Shown here one piece after another: positions 19,111 to 64,000 of a stretch of DNA of 64,000 nucleotides (the stretch's first letter is position 1; each line of letters begins with the position of its first letter). A program made the position numbers and the translations under genes. The notes under the pieces were generated by a model. That model had not been told where the DNA came from. It did no database searches and was given only the letters and a program-made list of their open reading frames with translations. Source of the stretch: Candidatus Binatia bacterium (lineage in GTDB: Bacteria > Desulfobacterota > Binatia > UBA9968); assembly GCA_046757725.1 (NCBI GenBank), contig JBHHYU010000006.1, positions 13,841 to 77,840 on the forward strand. The letters run 5' to 3'.

Positions 19111-19326
19111 ACCAGACCCTGGGTAATGGTTAAGAGTGAGGGTCAGATCGTACAATCCGTTTACCCCGGCCCGAGCATCCAGTTGTTTCCGCTCGCTTAA
19201 GTTGTTTAAGCTCTTTAGGTTGTTCGATTCGTTTAGCTGGTTCCCCGTGGTGCTTTAGTCCAGCGGTTCGACCCATTACAACCTAGACTACTCGGATGGC
19301 CTGAACGAGTTAAACGTCAACTTTTT

Positions 19327-20133
19327 ATGAGAAAGCTTGGACTGATCGCTGGTAATGGGAAGTTCCCACTGATATTTGCAAAACAGGCAAAACGGGAAGG
19401 GGTCTCCTTGGTGACGGTGGCGCATCACGGGGAAACCTCAAAAGAGATTGAAGAACTGGTGGAGGGAGTCACCTGGATCTATGTCGGGGAATTGGGAAAA
19501 ATTATTCGAACCTTTCATCGTGCCGAAGTCGGAGAAGCTGTAATGGTGGGGGGTATTCGAAAGATTAAGCTTTTTTCAAACTTCAGACCGGACCTTAGAG
19601 GGGCAGCGTTTTTAGCCCGGGTCAGGAGCAGGGAAGATGACCGCCTTCTGAGGGGTATAGCCGAGGAGTTGGAAAAAGAAGGTATTAAAATTTTGGAGTC
19701 TACTCTGTTCCTTGCTGAGATCATTCCCTCCGAGGGTGTGATGACCGACCGTTCGCCGACTCCGAAGCAGTGGGAAGATGTTCGGTTTGGATTTAAAGTT
19801 GCCAAGGAGATAGGACGCTTGGGGATCGGACAGAGCGTCGTGGTCAAGAATCGGGTTGTACTAGCTGTTGAAGCGATAGAAGGGACCGATGCGGCAATCC
19901 GCAGGGGAGGAGATCTAGGAAAAGGAGGGTTCGTGTTCGTTAAGGTAAGCAAGCCGGAACAGGACCTTCGCTTCGATGTCCCTGCGGTCGGCGTGAACAC
20001 GGTGAGAGTTTTGCATGAGTGGAAAGGTGCCGTCCTGGCGGTGGAAGCCGATAAGACAATCCTTTTGGAAAGAGAGGAATTGCTCCGGGAGGCGAATAAA
20101 CGGGGGATCGCCGTGGCTGCCGTGAGCGGGTGA
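19327..20133 (+). CDS. lpxI: UDP-2,3-diacylglucosamine hydrolase LpxI (DUF1009 family)
   Basis: LGLIAGNGKFP N-terminal motif. Located between lpxA and lpxB, as in LpxI-using lineages. Confidence 0.75.
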   Translation: MRKLGLIAGNGKFPLIFAKQAKREGVSLVTVAHHGETSKEIEELVEGVTWIYVGELGKIIRTFHRAEVGEAVMVGGIRKIKLFSNFRPDLRGAAFLARVRSREDDRLLRGIAEELEKEGIKILESTLFLAEIIPSEGVMTDRSPTPKQWEDVRFGFKVAKEIGRLGIGQSVVVKNRVVLAVEAIEGTDAAIRRGGDLGKGGFVFVKVSKPEQDLRFDVPAVGVNTVRVLHEWKGAVLAVEADKTILLEREELLREANKRGIAVAAVSG

Positions 20134-54653: not shown

Positions 54654-54885
54654 ATGAACTACCCCGTAGCAAGCTGCTGGGTATCAAAAGGAACGGACTC
54701 ATGTCAACACATTGCTATCGCGCCAAGAGCCTACTCCGCCGAAGCAGGCGCTTCCGCTGCGAAGGCCGGGCGCCAAGGGCGCAAAGAAAAACATGACCCT
54801 ATTTCTCCGAACTTGGCGTGCTTTGCGTCTTTGCGGGAGCCATCGTTTTGCCATTTCCGTAAGCCACATTTTAACCGATTGCTGC
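54654..54885. repeat. 232-bp element, inverted copy 1 (partner at 59254..59485)
   Basis: The reverse complement aligns to 59254..59485 with about 11 differences. A ~165-bp core differs by a single base. Confidence 0.85.
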
Positions 54886-57883: not shown

Positions 57884-59156
57884 CGCCAATACACTATCAC
57901 CTACAAACGAAACCAACGGTCTCCGAACATACAGCGAGACCGTCGCTAAAGGACTATACAACAAATATATTGGTGGTCTGTTTGGAAAACACGACAACGT
58001 ACGGACCTACTGGGAGGACCAGCTAACCCGGCTCGCCCTGCGCCCGTTCGTTAATCGGATTGCCCAAGCCTGCCGCGCCGAAAACCGCGGCGTGCGCATC
58101 TTGGACCTGGGATGCGGTGCGGGGCAGGGATACGAATTGCTGACGCGTATCAACCAGAAAGACCTGAATATGGACACCGATTTGCCCTATGTGCTGCCCC
58201 CAGAAGAGATAGGTCAGTTTCTCGGCGTTGACATAAGCGATGCCATGGTTGAACAGGGCCGGCAGAACTACTCCGGCGTTTCGAACGTCGCCTTCGAGCA
58301 AGCGGATCTGTCCGAGGGACTCGGGATGGTCAAGTCGGAGTCACCCTTCGACATCTACTTCTCGTCGTACGGCGCCTTGTCTCATTTAGAAACCGCCGCC
58401 CTCCGTCAATGCTTGACTGATATCCTCTACCACGCGAGACCGGGAGCACTGGTGGTATTAGATATGGTTGGACGCTACTCGCCGGAGTGGCCGCTCTATT
58501 GGAGCACGGATAATGAAGTCGAGGACATGCACCCATACTCGATGAGTTACATGTACGACGAACAGGAGCGGCGGAAAGGCGAGATAGAGCAATTTCCCCT
58601 CCGCTTCTGGAGTAGTGTTGACGTACGTCGTATGTGCGACGAACTGGGTCAGCATCAAGGTGTCTCCTTGAAGCCGATCGAGTTCTTAGATCGCTCGATA
58701 TTCGTAGGGCGCCACACCGACACACGGGAATACCAGTGTAGCCTCCCGCGCCTCCGCAGGGTCGTAAACAAGCTGTACGAACTAAACGTCCGAACGCATA
58801 TCGAACAGCTCCGATTGGACTATCGGCCCTCGGATGGTCCCGAGGAACTCAACCGTTTCTTTAGTGAATTGGCCATGAGCTGGACGAAGGTCGTTGACTT
58901 TACGCTGAACCGGATTCAGGGCGACCGCATGGACCTCGTAGCCCTCGATGGCTGGCGCACGTTCGCTCCCGCTTTGCAGACGGCCCTGATGACAATGGAC
59001 CGAGTGATCGACAGCGTGTCCTGGATCAGTCTTGGCGATGTCCGCGCCAACATCCTGGAACCGCAGCTGGCCTACGTGCTGCAACGTCTCGAGTATACCA
59101 TGCAGCACGGATGGGGCTGTGGGCACGGTCTGGTCGTTGTGTTACAAGTGGAATAG
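57876..59156 (+). CDS. SAM-dependent methyltransferase with a ~250-aa C-terminal extension
   Basis: Motif I VRILDLGCGAGQG. The ATG at 57876 overlaps the asnB-like stop by 8 nt and has AGGAGG upstream. Confidence 0.7.
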   Translation: MPNANTLSPTNETNGLRTYSETVAKGLYNKYIGGLFGKHDNVRTYWEDQLTRLALRPFVNRIAQACRAENRGVRILDLGCGAGQGYELLTRINQKDLNMDTDLPYVLPPEEIGQFLGVDISDAMVEQGRQNYSGVSNVAFEQADLSEGLGMVKSESPFDIYFSSYGALSHLETAALRQCLTDILYHARPGALVVLDMVGRYSPEWPLYWSTDNEVEDMHPYSMSYMYDEQERRKGEIEQFPLRFWSSVDVRRMCDELGQHQGVSLKPIEFLDRSIFVGRHTDTREYQCSLPRLRRVVNKLYELNVRTHIEQLRLDYRPSDGPEELNRFFSELAMSWTKVVDFTLNRIQGDRMDLVALDGWRTFAPALQTALMTMDRVIDSVSWISLGDVRANILEPQLAYVLQRLEYTMQHGWGCGHGLVVVLQVE

Positions 59157-59253
59157 ATTCCGGGAAGCGTATTTATTGAAGCGTGAACCATATAAGGAGG
59201 TACCGAGGTGGCTAAGCTGTACTTTCATTCAATCGCTACGGGTTAATTCCCCG

Positions 59254-59485
59254 CAGCTATCGGTTAAGATGTGGCTTACGGAAACGGCAAAATGATGACT
59301 TGCGCAAAGGCGCAAAGCACGCCAAGTTCGGAGAAATAGGGGTCATGTTTTTCTTTGCGCCCTTGGCGCCCGGCCTTCGCAGCGGAAGCGCCTGCTTCGG
59401 CGGAGTAGGCTCTTGGCGCGATAGCAATGTGTTGACATGAGTCCGTTCCTTTTGATACCCCGCAGCTTGCTGCGGGGTAGTTCAT
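59254..59485. repeat. 232-bp element, inverted copy 2
   Basis: See copy 1. Contains a perfect hairpin CCCCGCAGC-ttg-GCTGCGGGG. Confidence 0.85.
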
Positions 59486-59562
59486 TTCGATTCGAATCTA
59501 CGGCGATGGGTTCCCTTACGAGCAAATATGTGTTATCCAGAAGCGTAAAAGGGAATCCTGTG

Positions 59563-60075
59563 ATGGGCAAACCGAGTTCAGATAGAATACTACCCAATGG
59601 GCTGGTTTTGTTCGTGGTTTTATTGTCATGGATATCATACGGCTATGCAGAGGCACCCGCTACTAAGGAAACCGCGGAACAATGGGAGGAGATAGCCTCT
59701 TTAAGGTATGAGGCTGCCATAGGCCACGAGTCACGGGCCGAACAGAAGGAAGCGCTTGGGAGTGAAACCCCTGGTGTGGCTCTTAGCGCTGCCGGTGATG
59801 AGAAGGTATCCGCTTCAGGCGGTTACAAAACCGCAAGCGAGCATTGGAAAAAAGCAGCTGAGGCGTACAAGGCGACGGGTGATTTAGATAATGCAAAAAA
59901 AGCCCGATACAACTCCGATCTGGCTTGGGAGTCGGCTAAACGTACGCTTCGCGAGGCAGCGGAATTGCATAAGAGGGCCGCAAAGGTGTTCGAAGACGCG
60001 AACAAACTGGGCGAGAAAATAGACGCGCTCAAAAAGGTGGCTAGTGATCTCGAAGCCTTACTGAACATGAAATAA
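59563..60075 (+). CDS. hypothetical secreted or membrane-anchored helical protein
   Basis: Signal-like MGKPSSDRILPNGLVLFVVLLSWISYGYAEAP followed by an Ala/Lys/Glu-rich helical region. Start chosen downstream of the repeat. Confidence 0.5.
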   Translation: MGKPSSDRILPNGLVLFVVLLSWISYGYAEAPATKETAEQWEEIASLRYEAAIGHESRAEQKEALGSETPGVALSAAGDEKVSASGGYKTASEHWKKAAEAYKATGDLDNAKKARYNSDLAWESAKRTLREAAELHKRAAKVFEDANKLGEKIDALKKVASDLEALLNMK

Positions 60076-60189
60076 TTGGAGTTAATTAGCAGTTCAAAGG
60101 TTTTAAAAGCGGCGGTCATTGGTGACAAGTCAATACCAACCGCCAGACAGCTTGACAAATCGTGCCCTTAAGATCTAATAGGGGCCAGT

Positions 60190-62151
60190 ATGGCAGCCAA
60201 ATGGGGGCTTTTCCTCTGTAATTGTCACCGCACACTTTCCCTCGATCCTGAGCGGCTTGTCCTTCCTACCGTCCCCAGCGTTCTCTCATTCGCAAGGGAT
60301 CCAGAGACTGAGGCTCCTAAATTTGCCTCAAGTGTCCAGAGTGAGGGACCCGATCAGGTACTGATCAGTTGCTGTGCCGGTCCCGGTCTGTTTAATCAGG
60401 CGATCAATAATGGCACGGCACCGTCTACGAAGCTGCGATTTGTTGATCTAAAAGGCCTCTGTTTTCAGGTCCATTCGGATCCCGCAGAGGCCCATGCCAA
60501 AGCAAACCGGTTGTTGTGTGCCGCGATGGAAACCGCCGAAGCGGAGACACAGGTGACCTATAATCCCTTGAATGTCGGGGGTCGTATCGTTATTGCGACC
60601 GATTCGACCCAAGGGATACAGTTCGCAGAAAAACTCCGAGACATCGCCCAGACAAGTTTTATTATCGCCCCGGATGTCCTGCCGGATCTGTCCCCGACGC
60701 TGGAGGTGACCAGGGGTCGGGTTCTGGGTGTCCAGGGCTCCTTGGGCGGCTTTCGGGTGACCGTTGAGACTAATGACGGGCCTAAACGGGGTCATCGGGA
60801 CCTGCAGGCGGATCAATTCGTATCCATATCAGAGAACGACACACCGGGTATTAAACGGCGTACGGGCTGTCATTTGCTTGTCAAGCCGGACAGGGCTGAC
60901 CTCGACGAACTTGCAATGCGCGTCCGTGACCTCATCGGTGACTTTGTCAAGCCGGTTCAGGTGGCATATAACGGCGATATCTGTGCGGGAGGGACGGCAG
61001 ACCAGAAGGGGTGTGGAATCTGCATAACCTCGTGTCCGTACGACGCCATCAGCCGCGACCCGCAAAATCATTTTCGGATGCAGGTTGATCACATGGCTTG
61101 CGAGGGGTGCGGCGCCTGTGCCTCGGCTTGTCCCACAAGCTCCCTGCGCTTTACGGAGCCCTCCCCGCATGAGCTCTATACGCGGCTCGCCGCTCTGCTC
61201 GGGCACAGACCAGGGCACAGTAACGGGGAACGTTTGACTGTTCTCTTCCATTGCGGCGAGCAGGGCAGGCGTGTACTCGAAGAGGCAGGCCGGCGGCCAC
61301 TGCCATACCCGGCGAGCGTGTTTCCCGTCGAGGTGCCGTGTCTGCGCTATGTTTCCGAGGCCAACATCCTGGCCGCTTTCCGCTTGGGTGCGGCCGGAGT
61401 CGGTCTCCTGGGCTGCGAGACATGCCAGCACGGGGAGCGGGAATTACTCTATCAGAAAGTTGACTTCTGCCGTCTGACTCTGGATGCCTTTGGCATGGGC
61501 TCTGAACGGTTGCGCCTCATGACTGCAGACCATGGTACGGAGGTGGAAGTCGTCACAGCCCTATCGAGCTTTGCCGAGAAGCTGGATAAGGCGCCTATCC
61601 ACTGGGACGGCAAACGCATCGATTCCTGGGGTAACCGGGAGGTAGTAGCCGACGCGATTCGGACCTTTATCGAACAGACAGGCCGGGAGCCCGGACGCAG
61701 GGCCCTCGATCCCTCGCAGCCCTTTGCTCTTGCGGATGTTGAGAGCTCTGGTTGTACCCTGTGTCGCTCCTGCGTGAATGTTTGTCCGGTACATGCCTTC
61801 AGCATCGAGGAGGGAAAAGGCTCATTGAGGTCTAAGGCCATTGCCTGTGTGGCCTGTGGTCTCTGCGAGAAGGTCTGCCCTGAAAACGTAATCACGCTTC
61901 GGCGGGAAATTTTCTTTGAACGGGACGCCCTCGATTACCAGACAGTAGTAGAAGACCCAATGGTCTCGTGTGGCAAGTGCGGGAAGCCCTATATCAACAA
62001 AAAGGCTCTGGAGACCATTGAGACTCGGCTGTTTTCACTTGAGTCGTTGATGGATACTTTTAGCGGTAATCGGCGAAAACTGCTCAGATTGTGTCCTGAC
62101 TGCCGTGCCGCAGAAGCCATGCTGGAAGTGGAGAAAGGCTGGAAACCGTGA
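60190..62151 (+). CDS. polyferredoxin with an embedded MvhD/FlpD-like domain (two 2x[4Fe-4S] modules plus a C-terminal CxxC...CxxC)
   Basis: Four CxxCxxCxxxCP motifs (CGICITSCP, CEGCGACASACP, CTLCRSCVNVCP, CVACGLCEKVCP). MvhD-like block VLFHCGEQG...VPCLRYVSEANILAAFRLGAAGVGLLGCETCQH. Confidence 0.75.
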   Translation: MAAKWGLFLCNCHRTLSLDPERLVLPTVPSVLSFARDPETEAPKFASSVQSEGPDQVLISCCAGPGLFNQAINNGTAPSTKLRFVDLKGLCFQVHSDPAEAHAKANRLLCAAMETAEAETQVTYNPLNVGGRIVIATDSTQGIQFAEKLRDIAQTSFIIAPDVLPDLSPTLEVTRGRVLGVQGSLGGFRVTVETNDGPKRGHRDLQADQFVSISENDTPGIKRRTGCHLLVKPDRADLDELAMRVRDLIGDFVKPVQVAYNGDICAGGTADQKGCGICITSCPYDAISRDPQNHFRMQVDHMACEGCGACASACPTSSLRFTEPSPHELYTRLAALLGHRPGHSNGERLTVLFHCGEQGRRVLEEAGRRPLPYPASVFPVEVPCLRYVSEANILAAFRLGAAGVGLLGCETCQHGERELLYQKVDFCRLTLDAFGMGSERLRLMTADHGTEVEVVTALSSFAEKLDKAPIHWDGKRIDSWGNREVVADAIRTFIEQTGREPGRRALDPSQPFALADVESSGCTLCRSCVNVCPVHAFSIEEGKGSLRSKAIACVACGLCEKVCPENVITLRREIFFERDALDYQTVVEDPMVSCGKCGKPYINKKALETIETRLFSLESLMDTFSGNRRKLLRLCPDCRAAEAMLEVEKGWKP

Positions 62152-62173
62152 CACAGAAGCTGATAAAGGGAGA

Positions 62174-62245
62174 GTTCAAAACGTTCAACTTGTTCAAGGC
62201 GTTCAAACGATTCAAACCATTTGAACCATATTGAACAATTGGAAC
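62174..62245 (+). repeat. hexamer array: five direct (G/A)TTCAA at exactly 9-bp spacing, then two inverted TTGAAC and a TGGAAC, ending 10 nt before ATG 62256
   Basis: Hexamers at 62174, 62183, 62192, 62201 and 62210. TTGAAC at 62221 and 62231. TGGAAC at 62240. Confidence 0.8.
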
Positions 62246-62255
62246 AAGTGGAAGT

Positions 62256-62699
62256 ATGGAGACGAGAGAGAAGCAGAAACGCAGAAAAGGCAAACGTGGG
62301 AGGCGGAAGAGTAAGGAGTTGATGGATGCGGCCCTTGATGCCTATATCCGCCATCTGGCACTGGAAAAATGGCGTCAGGTGACCGATCTCCAAGAGACTC
62401 TTGGGGTTGATGTGGGGCAGGCGGTCCGTGATGTCGGATGCTTTCCGGAAAGGGGAGCCTATGGAAACATCTGGGAGCGATGGTGGCAGACCCATGTTGT
62501 CGGCATTCATAATGCGGAGACCTCACCGCTAATCGAGCACATTGAGGCGGCGGTTCAGGGTGCGCTCGAAGAGGAGATCGTCACTCGACAGAAGCAAGAA
62601 GATGTAACGGTAGAAGATACCCTGGGCTACAAAGCCTTTCTGGATTCCGCTATGGACCACTTGTTTGAGGAAGAAGAGGGGTCCATCGAGGAGATGTGA
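62256..62699 (+). CDS. hypothetical protein (basic N-terminus, acidic C-terminus)
   Basis: Stop overlaps or abuts the start of the TorD-like gene (TGA-ATG at 62697-62702). Preceded by the GTTCAA array. Confidence 0.55.
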   Translation: METREKQKRRKGKRGRRKSKELMDAALDAYIRHLALEKWRQVTDLQETLGVDVGQAVRDVGCFPERGAYGNIWERWWQTHVVGIHNAETSPLIEHIEAAVQGALEEEIVTRQKQEDVTVEDTLGYKAFLDSAMDHLFEEEEGSIEEM

Positions 62700-63434
62700 A
62701 TGGATCAGGTAACGGTCAGAGACAAAGCGCTGGTACAGTTCCGCTACAACTATTACGGCTTGTTCGTTCGGTTCTGGTCGAGGGAACCGGCAGCGGAATT
62801 CATTGCGTCTCTAGAAGAGGGTATTCAAGATCGAATGGAGGCTGCTGCTACGCTTCACCCGCGCATGGGGGAAGGGTGGCGGCACATTCGGCAGTTTCTA
62901 GCCCAAGGCAAACCCGAGGAGGCAGCCGAAGAGTTTACCGAGCTTTTTCTCAGTCCCTTTGGTTCTCAAGTCAACCCCTATGAGTCCTATTATCTCACGG
63001 GCCACCTGTTCAGGGCTCCCCTTGTGGTCCTTCGTGGCTTCCTTGAACGTCTCGGTTTGGAGAGAGAACAGCAAGAATTTTCTGAGCCTGAAGATGTGCT
63101 GGCGTTCGAACTGGAAGTCATGCGCTGGCTGATTGGCAAGCAGATGGCGACAGAAAATGAAGGGGAAGAAACGAGTTGGTTGCAACTTCAGGCTGATTTT
63201 CTCAGAGAGCATTTGCTCGTCTGGGTTCCCACCTGTACGGAGGATATAGAGAGGGCTCAACAGGCGCACTTCTATCGTGGCGCTGCCATAATGCTCCGTG
63301 CCTTTCTTGAGTTGGAGCACACTCTCTTCCGCGACTGGGGACTGGATCAGATAGTGTCCCTTGCGGAGGCTAGAAAACGTTACGGGGTGAAACCAATCTG
63401 GAAAGGTCCAACCTTTGATGTATCCGGCGATTAG
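62700..63434 (+). CDS. TorD/DmsD/NarJ-family redox-enzyme maturation chaperone
   Basis: ELFLSPFGSQVNPYESYYLTGHLF region typical of the TorD family. Confidence 0.7.
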   Translation: MDQVTVRDKALVQFRYNYYGLFVRFWSREPAAEFIASLEEGIQDRMEAAATLHPRMGEGWRHIRQFLAQGKPEEAAEEFTELFLSPFGSQVNPYESYYLTGHLFRAPLVVLRGFLERLGLEREQQEFSEPEDVLAFELEVMRWLIGKQMATENEGEETSWLQLQADFLREHLLVWVPTCTEDIERAQQAHFYRGAAIMLRAFLELEHTLFRDWGLDQIVSLAEARKRYGVKPIWKGPTFDVSGD

Positions 63435-63582
63435 CCTGAAAATTCCTTGCCTTCCGGCGAACAGCACCTTGAACGATTTCTTTTGTCGCGCAGTTTTTTT
63501 TCCTTGACAGGTATTTGACTAAGTGATACCGGAGACAGTACATAGACGTAAGTTTCTCACTTAGGAGAGGAGGTCACCGACC

Positions 63583-63831
63583 ATGATCGAAGGCTACATA
63601 AAGAAAATGGACCTGGTGCAACGAACTGCGGTTATTACTACTGAGGACGATCAGGATATAACAATCACTTTCCCTGAGGAAGCTAACATTGAAGTCGCTG
63701 AAGAAGAAACCATGGGAACTGTTGGGGGGGAACTGGCAGACCTCCAGGAAGGATTTTACGTAGAGGTAGAGGTGGGGAGGCAGGATACTGAAGGCAAGTG
63801 GAGCTGCGGTTCCTTGGTCTGTGTGAGCTAG
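63583..63831 (+). CDS. small acidic hypothetical protein
   Basis: GGAGAGGAGG RBS immediately upstream. 82 aa. Confidence 0.5.
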   Translation: MIEGYIKKMDLVQRTAVITTEDDQDITITFPEEANIEVAEEETMGTVGGELADLQEGFYVEVEVGRQDTEGKWSCGSLVCVS

Positions 63832-63874
63832 GGGCTGTTTGACATGGCTCTTTCATGCATGGGGGGGCATACAT

Positions 63875-64000
63875 ATGAAACGAAACGTGAAGCCTAAAAA
63901 TATTCATCCGCGACGGCAATTTCTTGCCGGTGTCCTGGCAGGTGTTGGTGGCGTCGTGGCTTGGTTGTGGACCCGAAAAGCGGTGCGCGCGGCACCAAAT
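63875..64000 (+). CDS. N-terminal fragment of a Tat-exported protein (runs off the window)
   Basis: MKRNVKPKNIHPRRQFLAGVLAGVGGVVAWLW contains a twin-arginine RRxFL motif plus a hydrophobic core. Confidence 0.55.
   Translation, partial: MKRNVKPKNIHPRRQFLAGVLAGVGGVVAWLWTRKAVRAAPN

What the first reader, a model, noticed from the sequence alone, without database searches (positions are those of the whole stretch)
62174..62245. Perfectly 9-bp-phased GTTCAA hexamer array, then inverted TTGAAC copies, immediately upstream of a start codon
Five direct (G/A)TTCAA hexamers start at 62174, 62183, 62192, 62201 and 62210, an exact 9-bp period. The array then flips to two TTGAAC hexamers (62221, 62231) and a TGGAAC (62240), and ends 10 nt before ATG 62256. 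At the direct-to-inverted junction, TTCAAA-cca-TTTGAA forms a dyad. A 9-bp phase places successive sites on progressively rotated faces of the helix. This is unlike the usual 10-11-bp phasing of cooperative activator sites. It resembles iteron-like or response-regulator direct-repeat arrays. Alternatively it could be an RNA-level repeat in the 5' leader of the small gene. It is too short-period and too short-unit to be a CRISPR array.
Basis: seen in the sequence. Interest (0 to 1): 0.5.

Follow-up and report, generated by a model that had tools for sequence, protein, structure and literature searches.

The report
Repeat-built palindrome between two operon genes
The 9-bp-phased GTTCAA array is real and conserved, but it is best read as one arm of a ~90-bp hairpin-forming repeat element sitting between two genes of a molybdoenzyme operon, not as a row of regulator binding sites.

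Summary
Observation confirmed. Five (G/A)TTCAA units lie at an exact 9-bp period (62174-62215), followed by TTGAAC, TTGAAC, TGGAAC and a fourth unit, TGGAAG. None is expected by chance, and two independent assemblies carry the identical sequence.

The array fills the 104-nt gap between a 4Fe-4S/FlpD gene and a conserved 147-aa gene. Both belong to a Candidatus Binatia operon that encodes a molybdoenzyme and its maturation factors.

Related operons that lack fdhD at this junction nearly all carry a hairpin there, made of tandem units followed by their inverted copies. The unit sequence and the period differ between them: 9 nt for GTTCAA, 7 nt for ATCTCAA/TGCAAAT, and 6/13 nt for CGTGCTCG. So the palindrome is what is kept, not the hexamer or its helical phase.

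The GTTCAA version is strongly conserved: 86% column identity against 38-42% at four-fold sites of the neighbouring gene. Copies also occur at three other intergenic sites, in either orientation, one of them on a phage-like contig.

Best reading (about 0.5): a small dispersed palindromic repeat, like REPIN or cyanobacterial STRR hairpins, that acts as an intercistronic stem-loop. A DNA-binding-protein array remains possible (about 0.2). Transcription and function were not tested. I class it as a new variant of a known kind, of moderate interest.

The parts
60190..62151 (+). Upstream cistron: a 653-aa 4Fe-4S / FlpD-domain protein ending in the conserved ...EKGWKP*.
   Evidence: ORF list. Pfam hits Fer4_7 4.7e-18 and FlpD 6.7e-16. 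The same gene lies upstream in the related loci.
62152..62173 (+). Non-repeat 5' flank of the spacer (CACAGAAGCTGATAAAGGGAGA). It is conserved with L031 and L012.
   Evidence: Alignment A2.
62162..62252 (+). Whole GTTCAA-family palindromic element, taken as the envelope of the family profile match.
   Evidence: nhmmer with the family alignment gives E 1.1e-22 and finds no other match in the 64-kb window. A strand-neutral hairpin alignment over 62181-62255 gives 28 Watson-Crick pairs, 4 transition (wobble-type) pairs and 3 mismatches.
62174..62215 (+). 5' arm: five direct (G/A)TTCAA units at an exact 9-bp period (62174, 62183, 62192, 62201, 62210).
   Evidence: The hexamers are invariant in L031, L012 and the inverted copies in L012 and L013.
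62211..62225 (.). Apex dyad TTCAAA-cca-TTTGAA. Relative to L031, this copy has an extra 9-nt unit inserted here.
62221..62254 (+). 3' arm: inverted units TTGAAC (62221), TTGAAC (62231), TGGAAC (62240) and TGGAAG (62249). It ends 1 nt before the ATG and overlaps the only Shine-Dalgarno-like GGAAG.
62256..62699 (+). Downstream cistron: a conserved 147-aa all-helical protein with an arginine/lysine-rich N-terminus. It has no Pfam family and no PDB fold match.
62700..63434 (+). TorD/NarJ-type (Nitrate_red_del) chaperone gene. Its ATG directly follows the stop codon of the small gene (ATGTGAATG).
62148..62234 (+). Candidate 28-codon ORF (GTG...TGA, MTQKLIKGEFKTFNLFKAFKRFKPFEPY*) that overlaps the upstream stop codon and runs through the 5' arm. 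Considered unlikely to be real.
   Evidence: Read from the sequences. L031 has an ATG at the same place and the same reading frame. L012 has CTA there. The variable positions of the array fall on codon positions 1 and 2.

Best explanation
The array is the 5' arm of an imperfect palindrome of about 90 bp (62162-62252). Its arms are built from 9-bp units, each a GTTCAA hexamer plus 3 variable bases.

It is one copy of a small family of dispersed, hairpin-forming intergenic repeats. The family resembles REPINs and the short tandemly repeated repetitive (STRR) hairpins of cyanobacteria.

Here it fills the gap between the 4Fe-4S/FlpD gene and the 147-aa gene of a molybdoenzyme operon. Other lineages carry fdhD at exactly this junction.

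When the operon is transcribed, the element would fold into an interrupted stem-loop: 6-bp helices separated by 3x3 internal loops. The outer part of the stem covers the weak Shine-Dalgarno region and ends 1 nt before the ATG. The most likely effect is post-transcriptional. It could set the expression ratio between the upstream and downstream cistrons by limiting translation start of the small gene, by acting as a decay barrier, or by serving as a processing site.

On this reading the exact 9-bp phase is a by-product of how the palindrome is built and grows, by unit duplication and extension at the apex. It is not a helical-phasing device for a protein.

Shown here: the palindromic architecture, its conservation at this junction with different unit sequences, strong purifying selection on the GTTCAA version, and extra copies elsewhere in either orientation. 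Inferred, not shown: co-transcription, folding in vivo, the regulatory effect, and any mobility mechanism.
For: 1. Architecture is conserved but sequence is not. In operons where the Fe-S gene directly precedes the small gene, the spacer holds tandem units followed by their inverted copies. The units are unrelated between families:
- GTTCAA in the window, L031 and L012
- ATCTCAA/TGCAAAT heptamers in L016, L018, L020 and L022
- CGTGCTCG in L023 and L034
- TAGTG in L024
- CAGC in L038
.

2. Hairpin stability is specific to this junction. 10 of 14 distinct spacers fold with z <= -2 on at least one strand, against 2 of 17 other spacers of the same operons (Fisher p = 0.001).

3. A strict scan for the direct-then-inverted architecture over the window plus 28 loci found it only at this spacer, apart from one GC-rich coding hit. 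It gave 1 hit in 20 shuffles.

4. Purifying selection is strong. Four-fold degenerate sites of the adjacent Fe-S gene are 38-42% identical among the window, L031 and L012. The spacers have 86% mean column identity, and every hexamer of the 5' arm is invariant.

5. Indels respect the hairpin.
- The window has one extra 9-nt unit at the apex relative to L031.
- L020 equals L022 plus a 28-nt palindromic insert at the apex.
- L104 has GC-rich inserts that are complementary to each other, one in each arm.

6. The family is dispersed and orientation-independent.
- An inverted copy forms a ~95-nt insertion between the small gene and the TorD-like gene in L012 and L013. Every other locus has adjacent or overlapping genes there.
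- A truncated inverted copy lies 8 nt upstream of a TPR gene in L018.
- A full copy lies between two co-directional phage-like genes in L104 (nhmmer E 1e-12; -53/-44 kcal/mol).

7. Loci that carry fdhD at the junction have spacers of only 3-38 nt and no hairpin.

8. A precedent exists. STRR hairpins between hupS and hupL are proposed to act on transcript stability or translational coupling (PMC2670836). REPINs are hairpin-forming mobile doublets (PMC3116915).
Against: 1. The window's own copy folds only weakly on the coding strand (-19.5 kcal/mol, z -1.0). It folds better on the opposite strand (-26.1 kcal/mol, z -3.6).
2. Across 17 spacers, G.U-type pairs are as frequent on one strand as on the other (35 against 33). 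Nothing therefore points specifically to a plus-strand RNA structure.
3. Among family-1 copies the GTTCAA arm is much better conserved than the TTGAAC arm. Selection on pairing alone does not predict this. It would suit recognition of the direct array.
4. Only one copy lies in the 64-kb window.
5. No transposase or REP-associated tyrosine transposase (RAYT) was seen among the 8 neighbouring ORFs scanned. No terminal inverted repeats or target duplications were identified.
6. No transcript data are available.
Confidence: 0.5

Rival explanations
1. Operator array. A multimerising DNA-binding protein reads each GTTCAA-N3 unit on duplex DNA in direct or inverted orientation. From my own knowledge, this is how the ribbon-helix-helix proteins omega and ParG, and MetJ, read arrays of 7-8-bp units. 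It would control the small gene and a few other genes.
For: - The hexamers are invariant across lineages whose synonymous sites are near saturation.
- The direct-repeat arm is clearly better conserved than the inverted arm.
- Further arrays lie just upstream of the start codons of other genes: the TorD-like gene in L012 and L013, a TPR gene in L018, and a phage-like gene in L104.
- Orientation independence fits duplex recognition.
Against: - Orthologous spacers of operons with 65-75% identical proteins use unrelated units and other periods (7 nt, 6/13 nt), yet keep the palindrome.
- No promoter-like site lies in or near the spacer, and the position is intercistronic.
- No regulator gene is adjacent.
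- The neighbouring 147-aa protein is highly conserved across loci with different units. It has no Pfam domain and no PDB fold match.
- Indels keep the two arms complementary.
Confidence: 0.2
2. Operon-specific, vertically inherited cis-regulatory RNA hairpin. It would be an intercistronic stabiliser, an RNase III-type processing site or a translation gate, with no mobile or dispersed character. The other copies would be local duplications or coincidences.
For: - Structure is enriched at this one junction.
- The non-repeat 5' flank is also conserved among the window, L031 and L012.
- Family-2 spacers are homologous between the two deep clades of the operon (nhmmer E 1e-7).
- In L012 the stem extends through G.U pairs into a U7 tract on the coding strand.
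Against: - Copies lie at three unrelated sites, including a phage-like contig, and in the opposite orientation.
- Wobble pairs show no strand bias.
- The window copy folds weakly on the coding strand.
- The sequence family at the same site has been replaced wholesale between close relatives. L031 and L023/L034 are sisters in the small-protein tree but carry GTTCAA and CGTGCTCG units respectively.
Confidence: 0.2
3. The array is translated. A 28-codon ORF (62148-62234) overlaps the stop codon of the Fe-S gene and would give an F-K/N-x repeat peptide, either as a coupled micro-ORF or through a corrected gene model.
For: The window has GTG, and L031 has ATG, overlapping the upstream stop codon. 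Both share the same frame and the same TAT-TGA end. Three of the five differing codons ahead of the array are synonymous (read).
Against: - L012 has CTA at the start position.
- The variable positions of the array fall on codon positions 1 and 2, giving T/S, L/S and A/P changes.
- The other spacer families have no such ORF.
- Inverted copies cannot encode the peptide.
Confidence: 0.03
4. A neutral by-product of replication slippage and template switching, with no function.
For: Unit number varies between relatives and growth occurs at the apex. Both are typical of slippage or snap-back synthesis.
Against: Spacer identity is 86% against 38-42% at neutral sites. A hairpin persists at the same junction in many lineages.
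Confidence: 0.05

Closest known systems
Cyanobacterial STRR (short tandemly repeated repetitive) hairpins, e.g. in the hupS-hupL intergenic region
   Same: Short tandem units are followed by their complement and can form a hairpin. They sit in an intercistronic spacer of a metalloenzyme operon. The proposed roles are transcript stability or translational coupling, and the function is still unproven (PMC2670836). Orthologous spacers here (L016, L018, L020) even use heptamers.
   Different: The organism is Candidatus Binatia, not a cyanobacterium. The window's family has a 9-nt unit, made of a hexamer plus 3 free bases. Abundance per genome is unknown, and only one copy lies in 64 kb.
REP / REPIN / BIME elements (repetitive extragenic palindromes, REP doublets forming hairpins)
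   Same: Small, non-coding, extragenic and hairpin-forming. They are found in either orientation between genes of operons and dispersed to several sites. Hairpins are predicted in ssDNA or mRNA (PMC3116915).
   Different: The arms here are arrays of 9-bp units, not two copies of a 20-25-nt REP. No RAYT gene was seen near it. High copy number is not shown.
TAACTGA heptamer direct repeats upstream of start codons in Beggiatoaceae, Cyanobacteria and Bacteroidetes
   Same: Arrays of a short unit lie within a few nucleotides of start codons. They are often intergenic within operons. They are proposed to be post-transcriptional regulator sites (PMC4679880).
   Different: Those arrays are almost all purely direct: 169 direct sets against one indirect. 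They are contiguous heptamers and are not palindromes.
Plasmid iterons, response-regulator direct repeats and ribbon-helix-helix operator arrays (omega heptads, ParG boxes, MetJ metboxes). This comparison rests on my own knowledge.
   Same: Multiple short units in direct and inverted orientation lie close to a gene start.
   Different: Those sites sit at promoters or origins. They have a cognate protein gene nearby, and their sequence is conserved with that protein. Here the position is intercistronic, no such gene was found, and the units are replaced in orthologues while the palindrome is kept.

Membership tests
Response-regulator direct-repeat sites / iterons | Repeat period close to one or two helical turns (10-11 or 21-22 bp), so that the sites lie on one face of the helix. 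| tested here: not met
   The period is exactly 9 bp in the window. It is 7 bp or 6/13 bp in orthologous spacers.
Response-regulator direct-repeat sites / iterons | Location at a promoter (overlapping or upstream of the -35 hexamer) or at a replication origin. | tested here: not met
   No sigma-70-like site lies in or near the spacer. The array fills a 104-nt gap between co-directional cistrons and ends 1-10 nt before the ATG. The scan covers only sigma-70-type promoters.
Response-regulator direct-repeat sites / iterons | The same recognition sequence is kept at orthologous loci. | tested here: inconclusive
   GTTCAA is kept in 3 lineages (window, L031, L012). It is replaced by unrelated units in at least 4 other spacer families of equally related operons.
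Response-regulator direct-repeat sites / iterons | A cognate DNA-binding protein (Rep or a regulator) is encoded nearby. | tested here: not met
   The neighbours are an Fe-S protein, a TorD-like chaperone and a 147-aa protein with no Pfam hit. That protein has an all-helical model with no PDB match at E <= 0.001.
REP / REPIN | Imperfect palindrome or inverted doublet in extragenic space, predicted to form a hairpin. | tested here: met
   Strand-neutral hairpin alignment gives 28 Watson-Crick pairs. Fold z is -3.6 on the minus strand. Family members reach z -5 to -6.5.
REP / REPIN | Many dispersed copies per genome. | tested here: inconclusive
   One copy lies in the 64-kb window. Copies occur at 3 other kinds of site in other genomes or contigs.
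REP / REPIN | Association with a RAYT (REP-associated tyrosine transposase) gene. | not tested
   Only 8 neighbouring ORFs were scanned against Pfam, and none was a transposase. The rest of the genome is not available.
Cyanobacterial STRR hairpins | Tandem short units (usually 7 nt) that, with their complement, can form a hairpin between genes. | tested here: met
   The architecture is met, with a 9-nt unit here and 7-nt units in orthologous spacers. The definition comes from PMC2670836.
Cyanobacterial STRR hairpins | Cyanobacterial host and genome-wide abundance of the same heptamer. | tested here: not met
   The source is annotated as a Candidatus Binatia bacterium. Relatives are Binatia, Deltaproteobacteria-labelled and unclassified MAGs. 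Abundance is not shown.
Intrinsic terminator | G+C-rich hairpin followed by a U tract. | tested here: not met
   No terminator-like site lies in the spacer. The stem is A+T-rich (38% GC) and no T run follows it in the window. L012's copy does have a T7 tract.
Any curated RNA family (Rfam 15) | A covariance-model match. | tested here: not met
   No match at E <= 1 in 59000-64000 on either strand.

The most novel reading that the evidence does not exclude
This junction may host an undescribed class of modular palindromic elements. Their arms would be arrays of 6-9-nt units. They would grow by self-templated extension at the apex, replace one another at the same intercistronic site, and spread to other intergenic sites, including a phage. 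On this reading the strongly conserved direct GTTCAA-N3 arm is the recognition array for a dedicated protein, either a mobilising enzyme or a filament-forming DNA binder with a 9-bp step. The junction would also be a recombination seam. Gain or loss of fdhD happens there, and so does the swap between two deeply diverged downstream modules.
Probability: 0.15. Interest if true: 0.65.

Novelty: new variant of a known kind. Interest (0 to 1): 0.42.

Why it matters
Hairpins built from tandem units in intercistronic spacers have been noted for decades in cyanobacterial hydrogenase operons, and their function is still unproven. This case offers a second, phylogenetically remote system with a natural comparative series. 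One junction carries at least five unrelated unit families, or none where fdhD is present. The adjacent synonymous sites are near saturation, so the selective constraint can be measured. The structure-versus-sequence question can therefore be tested directly with arm-swap and hexamer-swap reporters. It may also help explain how expression of maturation factors is balanced in an uncharacterised molybdoenzyme operon of Binatia and Tectomicrobia. For annotation, it warns against reading phased short repeats next to a start codon as regulator sites.

Tried and rejected
- Rfam search of 59-64 kb at E <= 1: nothing.
- Sigma-70 promoter and intrinsic-terminator scans: nothing in the spacer.
- Sliding 100-nt fold scan of the whole window, looking for more repeat-built hairpins: the other strong hairpins are ordinary, and this element ranks only 14th, on the minus strand.
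- Test for strand bias of wobble pairs, to separate an RNA-level from a DNA-level structure: 35 against 33, uninformative.
- Idea that the 147-aa protein is the binding factor: its model is confident (pLDDT 84) but has no PDB match, and the protein does not co-vary with the unit type.
- First impression that 54768-54835 and 59302-59371 were further elements of this kind: they are parts of a 232-bp inverted repeat pair.
- Viral-contig scan for three phased GTTCAA units: at least 120 hits, but only L104 resembles the element in both arms. The rest are plain tandem arrays.
- Viral scans for the family-1 core with apex (0 hits) and for the family-2 core (8 chance hits without repeats).
- SECIS, CRISPR and attC readings were considered and dropped on the sequence alone. 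The upstream stop codon is UAA in several loci. The units are too short for CRISPR. The attC R'/R'' core motifs are absent.
- nhmmer with families 2-5 against all held DNA: no copies outside the orthologous spacer.

Full report
**1.

The sequence shows GTTCAA at 62174, 62183, 62192 and 62201, and ATTCAA at 62210, an exact 9-bp period. TTGAAC follows at 62221 and 62231, TGGAAC at 62240, a further degenerate TGGAAG at 62249, and ATG at 62256. The junction dyad TTCAAA-cca-TTTGAA lies at 62211-62225.

The five-unit pattern never occurs in 100 dinucleotide-preserving shuffles of the window, even with 3 mismatches allowed. The single hexamer is not enriched (37 found, 37.1 expected). Tandem Repeats Finder reports period 9. 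Two independent assemblies from other sequencing runs carry the identical 104-nt spacer.

**2. Context**

The array fills the gap between two cistrons.
- Upstream is a 653-aa 4Fe-4S/FlpD protein gene (60190-62151).
- Downstream is a 147-aa gene (62256-62699).
- A TorD/NarJ-type chaperone gene follows directly (62700-63434).

The exact protein is annotated as a hypothetical protein of a Candidatus Binatia MAG. In related contigs the operon continues with two small ORFs and a ~940-aa molybdopterin oxidoreductase. In several lineages an fdhD gene sits exactly where the array sits here.

The 147-aa protein is well conserved, and a confident model shows it as all-helical. It has no Pfam family and no PDB fold match. 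Nothing marks it as a nucleic-acid binder.

**3. Comparative evidence**

I collected about 40 related loci. Where fdhD is present, the spacers are 3-38 nt and hold no hairpin.

Where the Fe-S gene directly precedes the small gene in the Binatia-like clades, the spacer is 57-136 nt. It almost always consists of tandem short units followed by their inverted copies. The units differ between families.

| Loci | Units |
|---|---|
| window, L031/L032, L012 | GTTCAA / TTGAAC |
| L016, L018, L020, L022 (L014 degenerate) | ATCTCAA / TGCAAAT-type heptamers |
| L023, L034 (L036 partly) | CGTGCTCG / CGAGCACG |
| L024 | TAGTG / CACTA |
| L038 | CAGC / GCTG |

The period is 9 nt only in the GTTCAA family. 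It is 7 nt in the heptamer family and in L024, and 6/13 nt in the CGTGCTCG family.

Ten of 14 distinct spacers fold with z <= -2 on at least one strand. Only 2 of 17 other spacers of the same operons do (Fisher p = 0.001). A strict scan for the direct-then-inverted architecture found it only at this junction in about 260 kb of held DNA.

What is conserved at this site is therefore a repeat-built palindrome, not a hexamer and not a helical phase. This is the main argument against phased regulator sites.

**4. The GTTCAA version is under strong constraint**

Four-fold degenerate sites of the adjacent Fe-S gene are only 38-42% identical among the window, L031 and L012. Their spacers align with 86% mean column identity, with every hexamer of the 5' arm invariant and the N3 positions partly free.

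Family-2 spacers are likewise recognisably homologous between two deep clades of the operon.

Indels respect the hairpin.
- The window has one extra 9-nt unit at the apex relative to L031.
- L020 equals L022 plus a 28-nt palindromic insert at the apex.
- The copy in L104 carries GC-rich inserts that are complementary to each other, one in each arm.

**5. The family is dispersed**

Copies occur at three sites besides the Fe-S/small-gene junction.
- L012 and L013 carry a second copy in the opposite orientation. It forms a ~95-nt insertion between the small gene and the TorD-like gene, where every other locus has adjacent or overlapping genes. It matches the window's element down to the N3 spacers.
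- L018, whose own junction holds a heptamer-type element, has a truncated inverted GTTCAA copy 8 nt upstream of a TPR gene.
- An IMG/VR contig (L104) has a full copy between two co-directional phage-like genes (nhmmer E 1e-12; -53/-44 kcal/mol).

Within the 64-kb window there is only the one copy. The orientation relative to the flanking genes is therefore not fixed. That fits a hairpin, which folds from either strand, or a DNA-level element. It does not fit a single-stranded RNA motif read by a protein.

**6. What does not fit neatly**

- The window's copy is only marginally stable on the coding strand (-19.5 kcal/mol, z -1.0). It is clearly stable on the other strand (-26.1 kcal/mol, z -3.6).
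- Across 17 spacers, wobble-type pairs are equally common on the two strands (35 against 33). I cannot say whether RNA or DNA is the level at which the structure matters.
- Among family-1 copies the direct GTTCAA arm is much better conserved than the inverted arm. This would suit recognition of the direct array by a protein.
- No transposase was seen nearby, and I found no terminal repeats or target duplications.

**7. Interpretation**

My best reading (about 0.5) is that this is a copy of a small dispersed palindromic repeat resident in an intercistronic gap. In the polycistronic transcript it would act as an interrupted stem-loop. Its base covers the weak Shine-Dalgarno-like GGAAG and abuts the ATG, so it would tune expression of the downstream maturation genes relative to the Fe-S gene. 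The 9-bp phase would be a construction feature.

The rivals are:
- a duplex-DNA operator array for a multimerising protein (about 0.2)
- a purely operon-specific RNA hairpin (about 0.2)
- a 28-codon micro-ORF (about 0.03)
- a neutral slippage product (about 0.05)

Co-transcription, folding in vivo and any effect on expression are inferred, not shown.

**8. Comparison with known systems**

- The closest parallel is the cyanobacterial STRR hairpin in the hupS-hupL spacer. It has the same architecture and the same kind of location, and its function is equally unproven (PMC2670836).
- REPINs share the hairpin-forming, extragenic, dispersed and orientation-free character (PMC3116915). They differ in being REP doublets tied to RAYT genes.
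- TAACTGA arrays share the proximity to start codons but are purely direct (PMC4679880).
- Membership in the iteron / response-regulator class fails on period, location and cognate protein.
- There is no Rfam match.

I therefore class the element as a new variant of a known kind and rate it of moderate interest.

**9. A side result**

The small protein and the TorD-like chaperone split into two deep clades, with 35-54% identity between them. The Fe-S protein is 64-84% identical across all loci and shows no such split. Gain or loss of fdhD also happens at this junction. The spacer may therefore mark a recombination seam. I did not test this rigorously, and bootstrap values were not inspected.

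Noticed in passing
window 54654-54885 and 59253-59485: A 232-bp inverted repeat pair, 99% complementary over 146 nt and 91% over 89 nt. It brackets a 4.4-kb segment that encodes a Fer4 protein, an asparagine synthase and a methyltransferase. Each copy contains its own small GCGC(C/A)AAG / CTTTGCG hairpin. It could be an invertible or transposed segment, or an assembly feature.
   Followed up: partly
window 62256-62699, and homologues P0001-P0062: The 147-aa protein belongs to a conserved family without a Pfam domain. It has an Arg/Lys-rich N-terminus and a confident five-helix model with no PDB match. It always lies between the FdhD or Fe-S gene and the TorD-like chaperone of a molybdoenzyme operon, in Binatia, Tectomicrobia/Entotheonella, Methylomirabilis and SAR324-labelled MAGs. 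It is probably an unrecognised maturation factor.
   Followed up: partly
Junction at window 62152-62255, compared with L029, L030, L033, L039 and L041: fdhD is present or absent at exactly this junction. The small protein and the TorD-like chaperone fall into two deep clades (35-54% identity), whereas the Fe-S protein is 64-84% identical across all loci. This suggests module exchange at the spacer.
   Followed up: partly
L012 4406-4503; L013 2420-2512 and 1999-2030: A second, inverted GTTCAA-family element is inserted between the small gene and the TorD-like gene. L013 has in addition lost the first spacer together with the basic N-terminal codons of the small gene, leaving the invariant Met23 as the likely start.
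   Followed up: yes
L104 3080-3210 (IMGVR_UViG_3300003324_000458): A full GTTCAA-family palindrome lies between two co-directional phage-like genes on a contig classed as viral. It hints that the family travels on, or is shared with, a phage or prophage of these bacteria.
   Followed up: partly
window 19181-19325: Three direct copies of a ~19-nt unit (AGTTGTTTAAGCTCYTTA) lie in the 216-nt gap upstream of the ORF that starts at 19327. A partly complementary stretch (CTGAACGAGTTAAACGTCAAC) lies just before the ATG. The match to the GTTCAA-family profile is weak (E 0.64), and the fold z is only -1.6.
   Followed up: partly
window 62148-62234: A 28-codon ORF (GTG start overlapping the Fe-S gene's TGA) runs through the 5' arm. 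L031 has an ATG at the same place and the same frame and stop, whereas L012 has no start codon. It is probably a consequence of nucleotide conservation rather than a gene.
   Followed up: partly
window 63435-63582: The 148-nt spacer after the TorD-like gene contains a T8 run and then a perfect TTGACA hexamer about 70 nt upstream of the 82-aa gene. The downstream structural genes may therefore form a separate transcription unit. The simple promoter/terminator scan did not call either feature.
   Followed up: no
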